From: Candidatus Bathyarchaeota archaeon
GTDB lineage: Archaea > Thermoproteota > Bathyarchaeia > Bathyarchaeales > Bathycorpusculaceae
Assembly: GCA_963832745.1 (NCBI GenBank)
Contig: CAWHVC010000001.1
Location: forward strand, 704,001 to 768,000
Length of the DNA: 64,000 bases
Direction of reading: 5' to 3'
Shown here one piece after another: positions 25,400-30,064 of the stretch (position 1 is its first letter; each line of letters opens with the position of its first letter). A model generated the notes under the pieces. The model saw nothing but the letters and a program-made list of their open reading frames with translations, did not search any database and had not been told where the DNA came from. A program made the position numbers and the translations under genes.

Positions 25400-25437
25400 A
25401 GAGGTTAGTGCAGGCAAACTGCCGCTCACTTTTTCTT

Positions 25438-26298
25438 TTATTGGTTTAATGGTCGCATAAGGTTTAGTCGCCATTGTTGACCGTAAGCGTTGATTGTCGT
25501 CCAATAGCATTCTTTCTGCACTGTTTCGCCACCAGTAGCGTTTAAGGTAAAGCTGTATTTTCCATGCCCAGAACTCTCAGCTGCCACTCTGTGCCCTACC
25601 GCTAAAAGTTCAGTATATCCAGAGTACAGGGGGTCAGTGAAAAGGTTCTTTCCCTGCTGGGCAGGGTCAGTGTCATAGAGGGATAACCCGTCAGTCTGCA
25701 TAACCAAAGCTGAATAATCCTTACCGTTTAGCAGTGGTGCAATGGTTGTGTTGATTAACTGGTCAGGATGGAAAATGACGCTTACACTGCCGATTTGCTG
25801 GTCGTTTGAATTATAAACTGGGCAGGCTAAAGCTACCCCTTGTACGCCTTCAACAAGCAGCATTGCTGGAGTCATCATGGGCGTCAATTCGCCATGTGGA
25901 TTGGTATAGAGCCAAGCTTGTTCGCCAACGTTTTTGCCTTCTGAACTTTGGTATTTGCTTGGTTCAACAATTATCATGTTATTGTTTAGGTCCTGTGTTG
26001 CTCCATCAATAATGAATGAACTACTCAAAGCTAAATCGTTCACAACAGCACGGGCTTTGTCACCAGAAATTCCCGTTATTGAGAGTTGCTGGGAAGCGTA
26101 AATTAGGCTATCTCTAATTTGTTTAATCTGCGCGTCTATGCCTATTTGTGCCTGAGACAAAATTTGAGTCATTTCAAGCCGAGTTTCGGCATTGCTTTTT
26201 TGGCTACTTGATGTTTGATTAGCAAGATATAGATTGCAACCTATTGATACAATTAAAGCAACGGTTAACACAGCTACTAAGAGCTTTAAAGTATTCAA
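25438..26298 (-). CDS. Membrane-anchored Cache-domain protein without an output domain
   Basis: N-terminal TM; ALACPVY...IGSVSVIF, VMQTDGLSLYDTDPAQQGKNLFTDP, KECYWTT. Confidence 0.75.
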   Translation of the reverse strand: MNTLKLLVAVLTVALIVSIGCNLYLANQTSSSQKSNAETRLEMTQILSQAQIGIDAQIKQIRDSLIYASQQLSITGISGDKARAVVNDLALSSSFIIDGATQDLNNNMIIVEPSKYQSSEGKNVGEQAWLYTNPHGELTPMMTPAMLLVEGVQGVALACPVYNSNDQQIGSVSVIFHPDQLINTTIAPLLNGKDYSALVMQTDGLSLYDTDPAQQGKNLFTDPLYSGYTELLAVGHRVAAESSGHGKYSFTLNATGGETVQKECYWTTINAYGQQWRLNLMRPLNQ

Positions 26299-26396
26299 TT
26301 AACATCAAATCTCCATAAGACATTACGGCTTAACGGTAAATAGAGGTTGTTAAGGGCAAAGCAAGATTAAAAATTCAGTGCAGAAAAACAAAAAAA

Positions 26397-26999
26397 TTAG
26401 GCTTTAACTGGAGCCTTTGTAACAACACGCGGGGGCTTTGTAACTACAATAGACGGTTTCGTGTCAGGTTTAACTGTATCCTCAATCTTAACCGGATACA
26501 CCGAGTAACCCACACTTAACCTATAAGGTGCCAAAAGCATGCCCCAAATCTTGCTTAACTCATCAACCGAAAGCGCATCAGGGACCACTTTTAGGTCCTC
26601 CCCAGCTTCGCTTATGCTGCCTTGAAGGTTTGAACCACGTATAATCGGCGTTTCATGGAACAGCTGCATAATTTTGCCCAAAACGATTTGGTCATTCTCG
26701 CCATTTTGGGTTATAGGCGTGATTAGGTAACGGAGGTTTAGGTAGAGTGGAGGCTTTGACGGGTTCTGGGTGGGTGTCGGCTGGTTGCGCATGCTGGCTA
26801 GTTCGGTGACGTTGTAAAGGTAAACTGAGATTTGTGGCGGTTTTAATTCGGCGGCGTCTTTAGGTGAAAGGAAATTGATTTGCTCAGGGTTTCTGATGAT
26901 GACGCTTGTTTGTTTGTCATCTTTGAAAGCGTTCCAGATTCGGTTGGCAAGAGTTTTGCTTGCACCGTTAATATTGTTAAAGCTCACCTGGTCTGTCAC
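26397..26999 (-). CDS. DUF4255 / Pvc16-Afp16-like tail terminator (cap) protein
   Basis: ISVYLYNVTELASMRN, PPLYLNLRYLITP, DQIVLGKIMQLFHETP, LSVDELSKIW...PYRLSVGY. Confidence 0.88.
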   Translation of the reverse strand: MTDQVSFNNINGASKTLANRIWNAFKDDKQTSVIIRNPEQINFLSPKDAAELKPPQISVYLYNVTELASMRNQPTPTQNPSKPPLYLNLRYLITPITQNGENDQIVLGKIMQLFHETPIIRGSNLQGSISEAGEDLKVVPDALSVDELSKIWGMLLAPYRLSVGYSVYPVKIEDTVKPDTKPSIVVTKPPRVVTKAPVKA

Positions 27000-27005
27000 C
27001 TAAGC

Positions 27006-27440
27006 TTATTTTACGCGTTGCATTGTTTCGAAAACGATTTCTAAGGTTTCAATGGCTACTTCGTTGGCTTTAGCGTTTAAGTCGGGTCCTTTGTATTTGC
27101 TTGGCCAAGCGTTTGTGAAGTCCCAGCGGGCTGCTTCAACGCCTTCCTCGTCAATAAGGATTACGGAAACGTTTTTGCGCATGGTGTTGATTTTTCCTTG
27201 TTCAATCATTTTCCGCCAATTATAAAGCTCCAATGAGTTAGTGATACCCCATTTCAGAATTAACGGGTTGTAGGCTGTGGCGCCGGGCAGTTTTTGAGTG
27301 GTAACTGATGTGCCTTCTCTGTGTTCGATTACTTCGCTTGCGGATTCAGGCACGATTACTTCACAAAAGTTTGCTTGTGCAACACCGGTTATTTCGATTC
27401 TGAAACGATGATTTCGAAAAGGGTCTTTTCTGGTTGACAT
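27006..27440 (-). CDS. T4 gp19-like tail tube protein (Afp1/Pvc1 type)
   Basis: RKDPFRNHRFRIEI, IEHREG, KLPG...LILKWG, RKNVSVILID, AWPSKYKGPDLNAKANEVAIETLEI; GGAGT site upstream. Confidence 0.93.
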   Translation of the reverse strand: MSTRKDPFRNHRFRIEITGVAQANFCEVIVPESASEVIEHREGTSVTTQKLPGATAYNPLILKWGITNSLELYNWRKMIEQGKINTMRKNVSVILIDEEGVEAARWDFTNAWPSKYKGPDLNAKANEVAIETLEIVFETMQRVK

Positions 27441-27529
27441 GTTATCGTTAACTCCAAACATGTACTCAGATGAAGGAATTATTATGTTTTGCCAAAAACT
27501 GCAAAGGCAACGCCGTGGATTTAACGCGT

Positions 27530-27874
27530 TTAATTTTTGGTTATGAAATCGCGGAGGGCTTCTTTTACAGGCATATTAAAAAGCGCACGCAAACGGTCCA
27601 AAGATTCCATGCCGCTGGAGGTTATTGCGTAATATTTGGTGCGTCGCCTGCCTTTTTGTGTCCATTCTCCAACAATGAAGCCGTCTTTTTCCATCTCATA
27701 AAGAAGCGGGTAAACTATACCGGAAGGCAAATGCTGTCCAGTTAGATGTTCAAGTTCTTTGACAAGCCCGTAGCCTGACATGGGCTTCTGGTTAACAAGC
27801 CACAGAATAATGCCTCTGCTGAAGTTTGTTACGATGTTTCTTATCGCTTCCCTTTCAGCCTCATCCACTGTCAA
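27530..27874 (-). CDS. PadR family transcriptional regulator
   Basis: PMSGYGLVKEL, GIVYPLLYEMEKDG, RRTKYYAITSSG. Confidence 0.93.
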   Translation of the reverse strand: MTVDEAEREAIRNIVTNFSRGIILWLVNQKPMSGYGLVKELEHLTGQHLPSGIVYPLLYEMEKDGFIVGEWTQKGRRRTKYYAITSSGMESLDRLRALFNMPVKEALRDFITKN

Positions 27875-27985
27875 AACGCCCCACGTGCAGTTGAATGCTT
27901 ATTTAATCATCGTATTAAATCATTTTTAAGGGCTAAAGTCAAAAAGGTTGATATATCAAAAAAAGAAACTCATAATAGTGGAATA

Positions 27986-28315
27986 ATGGTTGACGTAGTC
28001 TGTGCTTTCCAAAGAGGATTAGATAGGCCTCTTATTCTTTGGCTTATCTCTAAAGGACCTGTTCACGGATATGAAATCAACAATGAAGTAAAACGGTTAA
28101 CTGGTCGACGTCTTAAGCCTGCAACCTTGTATCCACTGCTTAACAAATTGGAAGATGACGGTTTTCTGGTAAGCGAATTGATTGAAAAAGGCCGCCGGAA
28201 ACTGCGATGCTACCGTTTGACGGAGAAGGGAGAAAAATTCCTGTGTAAAACGTCAGAATTGTTCAAGTTGCCCCTTAGACGGATAATTGCGGATTTGCTA
28301 GGCGAACAAGACTAA
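27986..28315 (+). CDS. PadR family transcriptional regulator (divergent paralog)
   Basis: PVHGYEI, TLYPLLNKLEDDG, RCYRLTEKG. Confidence 0.93.
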   Translation: MVDVVCAFQRGLDRPLILWLISKGPVHGYEINNEVKRLTGRRLKPATLYPLLNKLEDDGFLVSELIEKGRRKLRCYRLTEKGEKFLCKTSELFKLPLRRIIADLLGEQD

Positions 28316-28471
28316 AAAAAGAGTTAGCGTGCTTTTCGGTTCAGTTCTTGATTGATAGTTGTTTTTGGTTTCTAAGGGAGCAAGCATGTGGTTGACAGAG
28401 AAGATTATATATCGGAATTTAAATGATTGATAAAATAAAACATTTAAATTATTAAGCAAGAAGGGTAGAAA

Positions 28472-30064
28472 TTGGACAAAACAAAAAACGGTTACAAAAT
28501 TGTTTTAACCGCAGACCGAACACTCATGAGCGAATACAACGGAGGCATATTTCTAGGCTTCAGCGCCTGCATTCCACGCGGAGTAATACCTGACAAGCTC
28601 TACTTTTCACTATTTTGCCCATCTATACAGGTTAACAAGGACGGGTCAGCCAAGTACGCGCCATGTGGAACAAGAAAAATGGAAGCCGAACTTCTAAAAA
28701 ACGGGTACAGCCCAAACGATGTCATCGTCGCACACCCTGACCACCTTGACAAAGTCGTTGGACCAAACACAAAAGCCCTTTGCATAACAGGAAATGACCC
28801 CTTAGGCATGGGACCAGCCACATCCACATTTAGGAACCTGTTCGGCGGCCAATCCTATATGGAACTCAAATTCAAAGAAATCCTAAACAACCCCGCCGTC
28901 CAAAAATACAAGCCCAAAATTATCGTTGGCGGAGCAGGCGCGTGGCAACTGGAAGAGGAGCAGGTGCGAAAAACCTTGGGCGTTGACTGCGTGGTTATTG
29001 GTGAAGGAGAAAAAGCGATGGATTCACTTTTTACTTCAACAGCTCTTGAAGAGCCCTGGCCGGGAGTTGTTAACGCCCCAGTTGTAGCTGAACCAGACAT
29101 CCCACTTATTCAAAACGGCACAATCGACGGTATTGTGGAGATTTCCCGTGGCTGCGGCAGAGGTTGTGCATTCTGTGTGCCTACTCTTCAACAGTACCGT
29201 TGTCGTTCTATAGAGAGCATTCTAAAGGAGGTTGATGTTAACCTTAAAGCTGGAAGACGCCCTTTGCTTCACGCAGAAGACGTCCTCAGATATAAAGCCA
29301 AAGGTTTTGAAATAAATGAGCCAGCAGTAAAGGAACTCTTTGATACTGTTTACCATCACCATGGCGTTAAAGCGGTGGCGATTAGCCATTTTGCGCTTTC
29401 CTCTGTAGTAAGCGCTCCAAACCTAATCAAGGATTTATCACAGATTTTGGATGTGACAAGTGACAGTTTATGGATGAGCGGTCAATGTGGTGTTGAAACA
29501 GGCAGCCCAAAAATTATCAAGAACCTGATGGCAGGCAAAGCTAAACCGTTCTTGCCTGATGATTGGCCAGAGGTTGTCGAGAAAGGCTTCCAGATTTTAA
29601 ACGAGAACAATTGGGTTCCAGTAGCCACTTTAATCATTGGTTTACCTGACGAGGAAGAAGAAGACACCCAACTAACAATTGACCTTGTAGAAAGGCTCAA
29701 GGAACACAAAAGCCTAATTGTGCCCTTATTCATGGTCAGTGAAGGCGGATTAAAAGGCAAATCAGAATCCTTCACCATGGACAAAATCAACCGTATACAA
29801 TCAGAGCTTTTTCTTAAATGCTGGCAACATAACCTTGACTGGAGCGGCACACTTATCAAAGAATATTTTGCTCAAAGCATTACAAGGGGCTATGGTATGC
29901 GGCTAGTTTTTGGGTATGGCGTTAAAGAAGCAAACAAGTTGATTAAGCAATGCAAGGACGAGTATAATTATGACATGAACACCATGATTAAAGATGTCAA
30001 GGCAGGCAAAATCAAGATTGGACCATTGCCGGCAAGGCTCCTTTACAAGGTTGTAAAGCACTAA
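28472..30064 (+). CDS. B12-binding-class radical SAM enzyme resembling the GDGT-modifying Grs/Gms family
   Basis: IVLTADRTLMS, APCGTRKMEA, DPLGMGP, VGGAGAWQ, RGCGRGCAFC (CxxxCxxC), GVETGS, TLIIGLPDE. Confidence 0.8.
   Translation: MDKTKNGYKIVLTADRTLMSEYNGGIFLGFSACIPRGVIPDKLYFSLFCPSIQVNKDGSAKYAPCGTRKMEAELLKNGYSPNDVIVAHPDHLDKVVGPNTKALCITGNDPLGMGPATSTFRNLFGGQSYMELKFKEILNNPAVQKYKPKIIVGGAGAWQLEEEQVRKTLGVDCVVIGEGEKAMDSLFTSTALEEPWPGVVNAPVVAEPDIPLIQNGTIDGIVEISRGCGRGCAFCVPTLQQYRCRSIESILKEVDVNLKAGRRPLLHAEDVLRYKAKGFEINEPAVKELFDTVYHHHGVKAVAISHFALSSVVSAPNLIKDLSQILDVTSDSLWMSGQCGVETGSPKIIKNLMAGKAKPFLPDDWPEVVEKGFQILNENNWVPVATLIIGLPDEEEEDTQLTIDLVERLKEHKSLIVPLFMVSEGGLKGKSESFTMDKINRIQSELFLKCWQHNLDWSGTLIKEYFAQSITRGYGMRLVFGYGVKEANKLIKQCKDEYNYDMNTMIKDVKAGKIKIGPLPARLLYKVVKH

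What the first reader, a model, noticed from the sequence alone, without database searches (positions are those of the whole stretch)
26397..27455. Orphan contractile-injection-system tube + cap gene pair with no sheath or baseplate
Seen: intact gp19-like tube and DUF4255 genes 6 nt apart, with a ribosome-binding site before the tube gene, among ordinary chromosomal genes. No sheath, baseplate, spike, LysM, AAA ATPase, capsid or integrase gene occurs in these 64 kb. Known: gp19-type tube plus Pvc16/Afp16 terminator are hallmarks of eCIS (Afp, PVC, MAC), normally encoded in large clusters. Inference: either a domesticated minimal capped-tube filament, a satellite locus supplying a variant tube/cap to a CIS encoded elsewhere, or a remnant. 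The intact frames favour function.
Basis: partly seen in the sequence, partly recalled or inferred. Interest (0 to 1): 0.8.

Follow-up and report, generated by a model that had tools for sequence, protein, structure and literature searches.

The report
Baseplate-less phage-tail genes in Bathyarchaeia
An archaeon keeps only three phage-tail-like genes (a tube, its cap and, far away, a sheath) intact and under selection, with none of the other parts of the injection machine they descend from, which suggests a new and still unknown use.

Summary
Window 27006-27461(-) encodes a gp19-type tube (PF06841, E 9e-41) and 26397-26999(-) a Pvc16_N cap (PF14065, E 4e-37), both intact, inside syntenic chromosomal genes. 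The genome (Bathyarchaeia, Bathy-6; 99% complete) has no gp25, Baseplate_J, spike, hub, PAAR, Afp5/7-like tube or Afp15-type WHD-domain ATPase anywhere.

The pair is not a one-off. 12 species of the genus carry it, in at least 5 chromosomal contexts, and in all 12 the tube gene has an upstream promoter-like box. Their tubes form one well-supported clade beside the tubes of complete eCIS clusters in sister species. dN/dS is 0.04-0.23 for the tube, 0.10-0.37 for the cap and 0.09-0.17 for the sheath. Across 120 species genomes, 35 have tube and sheath but no Baseplate_J match.

"Satellite of a CIS elsewhere" and "remnant" are both disfavoured. Domestication is favoured, but the function is inferred only. 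There are no expression data.

The parts
27006..27461 (-). gp19-type (Afp1/Pvc1-like) tube gene. The longest ORF is 151 aa; the likely true start is ATG 27440 (144 aa).
   Evidence: PF06841 E 9.4e-41. A PDB profile search matches CIS tubes 7adz 6e-24, 7b5h 3e-21, Afp1 1e-10 and Pvc1 3e-10. All 12 orthologs start MS[A/T]. dN/dS is 0.04-0.23.
26397..26999 (-). Pvc16_N (DUF4255) tube/sheath terminator ('cap') gene, 200 aa. The likely true start is GTG 26987 (196 aa).
   Evidence: PF14065 E 4.4e-37. A PDB profile search matches Pvc16 6j0f 8e-5 and the 192-197-aa caps of 7adz and 7b5i. 24 columns are invariant between the orphan caps and the caps of complete clusters. dN/dS is 0.10-0.37.
27479..27490 (-). 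A/T-rich box (AAAACATAATAA) upstream of the tube gene: a candidate archaeal BRE/TATA promoter element.
   Evidence: Read from the sequence. A similar box (AAAA[C/T]ATAATAG-like) lies upstream of the tube gene in all 12 orthologous pairs, whatever their chromosomal context. That it acts as a promoter is inferred, not shown.
27452..27455 (-). GGAG, a ribosome-binding-site-like motif 11 nt before ATG 27440.
   Evidence: 11 of the 12 orthologs show GGAG, GAGG or AAGG 6-11 nt before the start; G030 shows none clearly.
26996..27001 (-). AGGTGA, a ribosome-binding-site-like motif 8 nt before the in-frame GTG 26987 of the cap gene.
   Evidence: Read from the sequence.
26384..26396 (-). T-run (7 T, G, 5 T) directly after the cap stop codon: a candidate archaeal transcription terminator.
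   Evidence: Read from the sequence. That it terminates transcription is inferred.

Best explanation
The tube-cap pair is a real two-gene module kept by selection. [quoted passage not shown] In this genome the module is one part of a baseplate-less trio. The third part is a minimal, Pvc2/Afp2-sized sheath gene that sits alone about 608 kb away and is inherited vertically across the genus.

Most likely mechanism (inferred). The tube protein stacks into a hollow tube. The cap hexamer binds one tube end and serves as terminator or, in the absence of a baseplate, as nucleus. The unlinked sheath polymerises around the tube. The product would be a capped, sheathed tubular polymer inside the cell that cannot fire in the canonical baseplate-triggered way. 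That would make it a tail-derived structural or scaffolding polymer, not an injector.

Shown: the identity of the three genes, the absence of detectable baseplate, spike, initiator and ATPase genes, descent from the genus's own eCIS lineage, purifying selection, and conservation in 12 species.

Inferred: that the three proteins co-assemble, that assembly can start without a baseplate, and what the polymer is for.

My confidence in the descriptive part is about 0.85. My confidence in the mechanism is about 0.35-0.4.
For: 1. Identity. Pfam matches. PDB profile matches to the tube, cap and sheath of solved CISs, with the sheath aligned over its full length to Pvc2 (7-358 against 6-353, E 4e-77).

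2. Only three parts are present. In the 99%-complete genome there is 1 tube, 1 cap and 1 sheath and 0 matches for gp25, Baseplate_J, Phage_base_V, GPD, CIS_tube, PAAR and the Afp15-type WHD domain. The same Pfam models do detect these parts in a sister species' cluster: gp25 6e-26, Phage_base_V 1e-28, Baseplate_J 6e-21, GPD 4e-9, CIS_tube+LysM 1e-31, WHD+AAA. HMMs built from each of the 27 ORFs of that cluster region hit only the tube, sheath, cap and generic AAA proteins among all G000 ORFs, apart from two marginal hits (E 0.009 and 0.09).

3. Descent. G000 tube, sheath and cap are 63-64%, 49-52% and 41-44% identical to those of the complete clusters in G108 and G118. The 12 orphan tubes form one starred clade (100/99) beside those cluster tubes. 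The 14 lone sheaths form one clade (SH-aLRT 97) sister to the cluster sheaths.

4. Selection. NG86 dN/dS over pairs with dS<2 is 0.04-0.23 for the tube, 0.10-0.37 for the cap and 0.09-0.17 for the sheath.

5. Module behaviour. The pair keeps its order and orientation in 12 species across at least 5 chromosomal contexts, and the tube gene keeps an upstream A/T box in all 12.

6. Link to the sheath. 11 of the 12 pair-bearing species have a sheath match; the one miss is a 56%-complete genome. Genus-wide, 40 of 53 tube-positive genomes have a sheath, against 7 of 67 tube-negative ones. In G115 and G130 a minimal sheath is divergently adjacent to an orphan tube module, so sheath and orphan tube can be physically linked.

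7. Layout elsewhere. gp25 and Phage_base_V were found in 0 of 5 sister genomes with the dispersed layout, 3 of which are single-contig. Baseplate_J matched in only 8 of 120 genus genomes, none of them a pair-bearing species.
Against: 1. From established knowledge of T4, pyocin and eCIS assembly (recalled, not tested here), tube and sheath polymerisation normally start on a baseplate (tube initiator, gp25 sheath initiator) and the cap normally ends growth. A baseplate-free start has no precedent that I know of.

2. The sheath and the tube modules do not co-evolve. The same vertically inherited sheath clade is found with two different tube lineages only about 30% identical to each other. G030 combines this tube type with a sheath of the other lineage.

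3. 13 of 53 tube-positive genomes have no sheath match, and 8 of those 13 are at least 90% complete. Tube modules in general therefore do not need the sheath.

4. Decay happens. Tube copies with in-frame stops occur in G032, G115, G133 and G029. The G113 sheath is split into two ORFs.

5. The co-occurrence counts are not corrected for shared ancestry.

6. There is no evidence of expression or assembly.

7. Extrachromosomal elements are easily lost from metagenome-assembled genomes, so a baseplate encoded on one cannot be excluded.
Confidence: 0.4

Rival explanations
1. Spare parts for a complete machine. The tube, cap and sheath work with baseplate, spike and ATPase genes that exist but were not seen, either because they sit on an unbinned plasmid or virus or because they are too divergent to detect. 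The system would then be a dispersed but canonical contractile injector.
For: Split eCIS loci are reported: Chen et al. 2019, PMC6899500, passage seen, describes '13 additional split loci'. All genomes here are metagenome-assembled, and such assemblies often miss extrachromosomal elements. The retained parts are the ones needed in the most copies per particle (general knowledge).
Against: No baseplate family was found in G000 (99% complete, 5 contigs). gp25 and Phage_base_V were not found in 0 of 5 sister genomes, including 3 single-contig ones. The Pfam models and the genus-specific HMMs detect these parts readily where clusters exist, so divergence is an unlikely reason. 35 genomes would all have to have lost the same element from their bins. 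The nearest tube on IMG/VR viral contigs is only 44% identical, against 63-64% for the genus's own chromosomal clusters.
Confidence: 0.2
2. The pair works without the sheath. The tube ring and cap have a sheath-independent job, for example a capped barrel that binds or chaperones a cargo, as Hcp rings do in T6SS. The lone sheath would be an unrelated leftover or have its own role.
For: Tube modules occur without any sheath match in 13 of 53 tube-positive genomes, 8 of them at least 90% complete. Tube lineage and sheath lineage are mixed freely. The pair and the sheath are unlinked and move independently.
Against: For this particular module, 11 of 12 species do have a sheath. The sheath is itself under purifying selection (dN/dS 0.09-0.17). 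In G115 and G130 a minimal sheath is adjacent to an orphan tube module. No cargo-like gene is conserved beside the pair across its contexts.
Confidence: 0.15
3. Interference or defence. Host-made tube, cap and sheath subunits poison the assembly of related tails or CIS particles of invading viruses or mobile elements, for example by premature capping.
For: The modules are swapped between lineages, show patchy distribution and carry different end-binding partners, a pattern that recalls conflict systems. The cap is the fastest-evolving of the three (41-79% identity against 62-79% for the tube).
Against: The proteins are closest to cellular eCIS clusters, not to viral tails. The best IMG/VR tube match is 44% identical. 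dN/dS gives no sign of positive selection at whole-gene level. No defence genes are conserved beside the pair. A provirus reported in a related closed genome is siphovirus-like, that is, without a sheath (PMC11697101, passage seen).
Confidence: 0.1
4. Slowly decaying remnants of a lost eCIS cluster, with no present function.
For: Complete clusters exist in the genus (8 of 120 genomes with a Baseplate_J match). Many different fragment combinations are seen: tube+cap, tube+tube-like protein, tube+AAA, tube2+sheath, and lone caps. Clear pseudogenes exist.
Against: dN/dS is 0.04-0.23 for the tube and similar for cap and sheath, over divergences at which dS is near saturation. Frames are intact in 12 species in at least 5 contexts, with a conserved upstream box. 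The sheath is syntenic across the genus. In the ancestral cluster, tube and cap are separated by the sheath gene and one more gene, so the tight pair is a derived arrangement that has since been kept.
Confidence: 0.08

Closest known systems
Extracellular contractile injection systems (Afp, PVC, AlgoCIS, cyanobacterial tCIS, Streptomyces CIS)
   Same: The tube, cap and sheath are sequence homologs of the solved parts. Tube: 7adz 6e-24, 7b5h 3e-21, Afp1, Pvc1. Cap: Pvc16 8e-5 and the 192-197-aa caps of 7adz and 7b5i. Sheath: 9ezm 7e-140, 8bky 8e-123, and Pvc2 over its full length at 4e-77.
   Different: There is no baseplate wedge (gp25, Baseplate_J), no spike or hub, no tube initiator (Afp5/7), no Afp15-type WHD-domain ATPase, and no homolog of any other gene (fibre-like included) of the sister-species cluster. 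The genes are not in one operon: the sheath lies about 608 kb from the pair.
The complete eCIS clusters of sister species in the same genus (G108:C7 about 318-338 kb; G118:C6)
   Same: They are the nearest relatives of all three G000 genes (63-64%, 49-52% and 41-44% identity). The orphan tubes branch beside these cluster tubes.
   Different: The cluster has the full canonical set, a sheath of 696-817 aa with an extra domain, and tube and cap separated by the sheath gene and a 212-aa gene. G000 has a 359-aa core-only sheath and a tight tube-cap pair.
Split eCIS loci (Chen et al. 2019, PMC6899500; passage seen)
   Same: CIS genes of one organism are distributed over more than one locus.
   Different: As I read that passage, the split loci together still make up an eCIS. 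Here the baseplate half is missing from the genome altogether.
Orphan hcp/vgrG/PAAR islands of T6SS (PMC13098142; abstract seen in the listing)
   Same: Tube-type genes sit away from, and 'often independent of', full systems.
   Different: A different tube family (Hcp, not gp19), in bacteria, usually with spike and effector genes. No cap or sheath is involved.
One-domain sheath homolog noted in 'Candidatus Bathyarchaeota' (Evseev et al. 2022, PMC9230969; passages seen)
   Same: It is probably the same kind of minimal sheath gene.
   Different: The passages seen model the protein only. They say nothing about its genomic isolation, an unlinked tube-cap pair or a missing baseplate.

Membership tests
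Pfam PF06841 Phage_T4_gp19 (tube) | Score above the curated cut-off over the whole model | tested here: met
   139.2 bits against a cut-off of 28.2, model positions 2-133 of 134.
Pfam PF14065 Pvc16_N (cap / tail terminator) | Score above the curated cut-off over the whole model | tested here: met
   128 bits against a cut-off of 27, model positions 5-178 of 180.
eCIS (Afp/PVC-type) system | Tube, sheath and cap present | tested here: met
   One of each in the genome. The sheath is 359 aa with PF04984 and PF17482.
eCIS (Afp/PVC-type) system | Baseplate wedge: gp25-like (Afp9) and Baseplate_J-like (Afp11) | tested here: not met
   0 matches in the 99%-complete genome. Cluster-derived HMMs give no hit. 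The models do work in the genus.
eCIS (Afp/PVC-type) system | Spike and hub (Afp8/VgrG-like: Phage_base_V, GPD; PAAR) | tested here: not met
   0 matches.
eCIS (Afp/PVC-type) system | Tube initiator or second tube (Afp5/Afp7; CIS_tube, LysM) | tested here: not met
   PF19266 gives 0 matches at E<=0.1. The HMM of the G108 CIS_tube+LysM protein gives no hit.
eCIS (Afp/PVC-type) system | Afp15-like AAA+ ATPase with N-terminal WHD | tested here: not met
   PF22977 gives 0 matches. Only generic AAA proteins on contigs C3 and C5 match the AAA part.
eCIS (Afp/PVC-type) system | Core genes in one operon (15-28 genes; Geller et al. 2021, passage seen) | tested here: not met
   The pair is at C1:730397-731461 and the sheath at C1:121554-122633. 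The neighbours of both are housekeeping genes.
Auxiliary or satellite locus of a CIS encoded elsewhere | A complete main system in the same genome | tested here: not met
   Caveat: unbinned extrachromosomal DNA cannot be excluded.
Myovirus prophage remnant | Capsid, integrase or other virion genes nearby | tested here: not met
   No HK97 capsid match in the genome. None of the 9 integrase matches lies in the window; the nearest to the sheath are about 20 kb away. Terminase was not searched.
Functional (non-pseudogene) protein-coding genes | Purifying selection and conservation across species | tested here: met
   dN/dS 0.04-0.37. 12 species carry the pair. The sheath is syntenic in 12 of 13 sheath loci compared.
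Functional (non-pseudogene) protein-coding genes | Expression | not testable with these tools
   No RNA run was listed.

The most novel reading that the evidence does not exclude
Bathy-6 archaea have turned a contractile injection system into a baseplate-free intracellular polymer system. The result would be a tail-derived cytoskeleton-like or scaffolding filament whose growth is nucleated or terminated from a tube end and not from a baseplate. That would be a new functional class of phage-tail descendants, alongside tailocins, eCIS and T6SS.
Probability: 0.25. Interest if true: 0.85.

Novelty: new variant of a known kind. Interest (0 to 1): 0.62.

Why it matters
Every contractile tail-like machine described so far (myovirus tails, tailocins, eCIS, T6SS, cytoplasmic and thylakoid-anchored CIS) is built on a baseplate that starts assembly and triggers firing. 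Here dozens of species keep a sheath and a tube, with a cap or another tube-end protein, intact under purifying selection, while baseplate genes are undetectable. This holds even though the same searches find those genes in sister species.

If the three proteins assemble, that would show either a baseplate-independent way of building sheathed tubes or a new, non-injecting use of tail proteins. It would also give a minimal three-protein system for studying tube and sheath polymerisation. If they do not assemble, the finding still documents how eCIS clusters break up into long-lived selected fragments. It also shows that pipelines requiring full operons overlook such fragments. I found no paper on CIS genes in Bathyarchaeia beyond one note of a sheath homolog.

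Tried and rejected
1. Complex prediction with cap + tube + sheath alignments, sheath as partner: score 0.00, verdict 'no answer'. No conclusion is drawn in either direction.

2. The look-up of sequencing runs on window 25400-28400: no RNA holder listed. No conclusion on expression or habitat.

3. The search of earlier findings by genome and by sequence: nothing to show.

4. First call to the fetch from genomes failed because files and regions were given together. It was repeated correctly.

5. My first reading of the partner gene in the G115, G130 and G124 modules as a 'WHD-only' protein (note) was wrong. Pfam shows a weak CIS_tube-like N-domain plus an AAA domain, and the 65-71% match to the cluster ATPase is to its AAA part.

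6. Recent foreign origin was considered from composition. The tube (GC3 0.43) and sheath (GC3 0.42) are typical of the genome (GC3 0.41, SD 0.06). The cap is somewhat high (GC3 0.50) with low codon fit (7th percentile). This is not strong enough to argue for recent transfer.

7. Viral origin. The best IMG/VR relatives are 44% (tube) and about 50% (sheath) identical, further away than the genus's own clusters. The contexts of these loci were not examined.

8. Fisher's test on the tube/sheath co-occurrence gives a very small p-value, but I do not use it as evidence because the genomes are related.

9. Structure prediction and fold search were not run. Full-length sequence matches to solved CIS parts made them unnecessary for family assignment.
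Full report
**What is at the site.** Window 27006-27461(-) is an intact 151-aa ORF matching Phage_T4_gp19 (PF06841, E 9.4e-41). Window 26397-26999(-) is an intact 200-aa ORF matching Pvc16_N/DUF4255 (PF14065, E 4.4e-37). PHROGs also calls the first a tail tube (phrog_4542, E 3.6e-16). The longest ORFs are 6 nt apart. Comparison with 11 orthologs shows that the tube almost certainly starts at ATG 27440 (all begin MS[A/T]; 144 aa), preceded by GGAG. The cap probably starts at GTG 26987, 8 nt after AGGTGA. A T-run follows the cap stop. The neighbours are an ECF-S component, a Cache-domain sensor, two PadR regulators, a B12-radical-SAM enzyme, an LPG-synthase-like membrane protein and SufBD/SufC.

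**The organism.** Close relatives carry record titles naming Candidatus Bathyarchaeia, Bathy-6, one of them a closed 3.04-Mb genome. The window is G000:C1:704001-768000 of a 3.02-Mb, 5-contig assembly rated 99% complete with 4.3% contamination.

**The rest of the genome.**
- Family searches over all six frames find exactly one gp19 tube, one Pvc16_N cap and one sheath.
- The sheath (PF04984 + PF17482, 359 aa) lies at C1:121554-122633, about 608 kb from the pair. It stands alone between a fasciclin-domain gene, DinB and HerA/NurA on one side and a zinc-ribbon gene and a complex-I-like operon on the other.
- There are no matches for gp25, Baseplate_J, Phage_base_V, GPD, PAAR, CIS_tube or the WHD domain of Afp15-type ATPases, and none for HK97 capsid.
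- The nine integrase matches are all outside the window.

These absences are meaningful because the same models score well on a complete eCIS cluster in sister species G108: WHD+AAA, PA14 fibre-like protein, Baseplate_J 6e-21, gp25 6e-26, Phage_base_V 1e-28, GPD 4e-9, CIS_tube+LysM 1e-31. I also built an HMM from each of the 27 ORFs of that cluster region together with its homologs in my loci, and searched all G000 ORFs of at least 50 aa. Only the tube, sheath, cap and generic AAA proteins were hit, apart from two marginal hits at E 0.009 and 0.09. A BLASTP of all ORFs from four cluster-bearing regions gave the same answer.

**Where the genes come from.** G000's tube, sheath and cap are 63-64%, 49-52% and 41-44% identical to those of the G108 and G118 clusters.
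- In a careful ML tree of 39 tubes, the 12 tubes that sit next to a roughly 200-aa cap form one clade (100/99, starred), beside the G108/G118 cluster tubes.
- A second group of 15 orphan tubes, about 30% identical to ours, forms another clade (80/99) beside the tubes of a different cluster lineage (G029, G006, G017).
- In a quick ML tree of 22 sheaths, the 14 lone sheaths of about 360 aa form one clade (SH-aLRT 97), sister to the long cluster sheaths of G108, G118, G115 and G012 (550-817 aa, except G012 at 382 aa). The lone sheath of G030 belongs to the other lineage.
- In the G108 cluster the order is tube, sheath, a 212-aa gene, then cap. The tight tube-cap pair is therefore a derived arrangement.

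**How widespread it is.** Among 120 species genomes of the genus:

| Family | Genomes with a match |
|---|---|
| Tube (PF06841) | 53 |
| Sheath (PF04984) | 47 |
| Cap (PF14065) | 42 |
| Baseplate_J (PF04865) | 8 |

Forty genomes have both tube and sheath, 13 have the tube only (8 of them at least 90% complete), 7 have the sheath only and 60 have neither. Thirty-five have tube and sheath without a Baseplate_J match (counted).

The G000-type pair (tube followed by a cap of about 200 aa) is present in 12 species: G000, G008, G030, G081, G091, G092, G113, G120, G123, G127, G134 and G140. Eleven of these also have a sheath match, and the exception is a 56%-complete genome. None has Baseplate_J.

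The pair lies in at least five chromosomal contexts. G000, G008, G091 and G081 share the PadR/radical-SAM context. G030 has the pair beside SufC. G120, G123 and G092 share a third context, G113, G134 and G127 a fourth, and G140 a fifth. In all 12 an A/T box of the AAAA[C/T]ATAATAG type lies upstream of the tube gene, and 11 of the 12 (not G030) also show a GGAG/GAGG/AAGG-type motif close to the start codon. That fits a module that carries its own archaeal promoter, though this is an inference.

The lone sheath, by contrast, stays put. In 12 of 13 sheath loci compared it has the same neighbours as in G000 at 58-78% identity, G030 being the exception. gp25 and Phage_base_V were found in 0 of 5 further genomes with the dispersed layout (G081, G008, G091, G014, G096; three are single contigs). 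In a sample of 301 genomes of the class, the tube family occurs in 21, of which 11 belong to this family (G000 plus 10 of 48 others).

**Selection.** Nei-Gojobori dN/dS on codon alignments, using pairs with dS<2:

| Gene | dN/dS range | Example pair |
|---|---|---|
| Tube | 0.04-0.23 | G000-G081: dN 0.116, dS 0.749, ratio 0.155 |
| Cap | 0.10-0.37 (0.12-0.22 where dS<1) | |
| Lone sheath | 0.09-0.17 | |

 Many pairs are near saturation, so the values are rough, but none approaches 1. The orphan caps share 24 invariant columns with in-cluster caps. The orphan tubes share 49 invariant columns with in-cluster tubes, and the C-terminal half is nearly identical. The composition of tube and sheath is typical of the genome. 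The cap is somewhat GC3-rich.

**Other mini-modules in the genus (context).**
- The second orphan tube clade is always followed by a 225-255-aa protein with a CIS_tube (PF19266) domain and no cap, in 13 of 13 loci examined. The same pair occurs in a sister genus, at 4 of 4 loci in 3 genomes.
- In G115 and G130 a 363-382-aa sheath is divergently adjacent to such a tube plus a fusion of a CIS_tube-like domain with an AAA domain that is 65-71% identical to the cluster ATPase. In G124 the same genes are 50 kb apart.
- G002 has an AAA-only gene next to a cluster-like tube. G012 has a second-tube paralog next to a sheath.
- About 18 genomes carry a lone Pvc16_N protein of about 290-320 aa, mostly without any tube.
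- Pseudogenised copies also exist.

The genus therefore holds a whole series of eCIS fragments. Some are clearly decaying. Others are conserved, selected and mobile as two-gene units.

**Interpretation.** A complete CIS elsewhere in this genome is not supported, and neutral decay is not supported. What remains is a selected, baseplate-less set of tube, cap and sheath.

I commit to the reading that they still do what their sequences are conserved for. That means polymerising into a capped, probably sheathed tube inside the cell, started or ended from the tube end by the cap. In the parallel modules, a tube-like ring would play that role. This reading unifies the module types as 'polymer subunit plus end-binding ring'. 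It also fits the sheath-tube linkage seen in G115 and G130.

The reading is weakened in four ways:
- Baseplate-independent assembly is unknown for this protein class (recalled knowledge).
- Tube and sheath lineages are mixed.
- Some well-assembled genomes have tube modules without a sheath.
- Expression and assembly data are entirely lacking.

The rivals are an unseen extrachromosomal baseplate, a sheath-independent role of tube and cap, interference with foreign tails, and slow decay. They are scored in their own sections.

**Literature.** No paper in the library holds both 'Bathyarchaeia' and 'contractile injection'. 'Bathyarchaeota' with 'tail sheath' gives only PMC9230969, which, in the passages I saw, notes a one-domain sheath homolog in a Bathyarchaeota assembly without genomic context. 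'DUF4255' with 'tail tube' and 'orphan' gives nothing. The eCIS surveys define systems by co-located core genes (PMC8213781 and PMC6899500, passages seen), so such fragments fall outside them. The Bathy-6 genome paper PMC11697101 has no occurrence of 'sheath' or 'contractile' in its main text.

**Verdict.** This is a new variant of a known kind: eCIS-derived genes kept without a baseplate. It is of real interest to CIS and archaeal cell biology, but it rests on comparative genomics alone.

Noticed in passing
G000:C1:121554-122633 (outside the window; L004:16554-17633): A lone 359-aa tail-sheath gene (PF04984 + PF17482) sits between a fasciclin-domain gene, DinB and HerA/NurA on one side and a zinc-ribbon gene and a complex-I-like operon on the other. 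It has the same neighbours in 12 of 13 sister-species loci compared.
   Followed up: yes
L030:8995-10259 (G014) and 12 further loci; L086-L089, L093: A second kind of orphan module: a 165-aa gp19 tube (78-86% identical among species, about 30% to ours) always followed by a 225-255-aa CIS_tube (PF19266) protein, without a cap. It is also present in a sister genus.
   Followed up: partly
L082:7483-10501 (G115:C6), L083:7594-10605 (G130:C8), L084/L085 (G124): A three-gene mini-locus: a minimal sheath divergently adjacent to a tube, plus a fusion of a CIS_tube-like domain with an AAA domain 65-71% identical to the eCIS cluster ATPase. In G124 the sheath lies 50 kb from the other two genes.
   Followed up: partly
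L079:7792-8706, L080:8205-9125, L081:7511-8425 and about 15 more genomes: Lone Pvc16_N proteins of about 290-320 aa with a C-terminal extension carrying no Pfam match, mostly in genomes with no tube or sheath match. None of the eCIS reference proteins I compared lies beside them.
   Followed up: partly
L005:3370-5303 (G000:C1:128370-130303): The NuoL/Mrp-antiporter-like gene of the complex-I-like operon is split into ORFs of 353, 231 and 209 aa in G000. G008, G091 and G081 each have a single ORF of about 640 aa. This is a frameshift, either real or an assembly error.
   Followed up: no
L056:9108-10188 (G113); G032:C9:17032-17430; G115:C9:40473-40865; G133:C54; G029:C11: Decaying copies. The G113 lone sheath is split into two ORFs. 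Several tube copies carry 2-5 in-frame stop codons.
   Followed up: no
window 27530-30064: Two divergently arranged PadR-family regulator genes lie next to a 530-aa B12-binding radical-SAM gene. The arrangement is conserved at 76-93% identity in G008, G091 and G081. The first PadR ends 68 nt upstream of the longest tube ORF on the same strand, but it does not travel with the pair in the other contexts.
   Followed up: partly
L039/L040 (G108:C7 about 318-338 kb): A complete archaeal eCIS cluster in a Bathy-6 species. It has an 817-aa sheath, a PA14/GLEYA fibre-like protein and a CarboxypepD_reg-domain gene between sheath and cap.
   Followed up: partly
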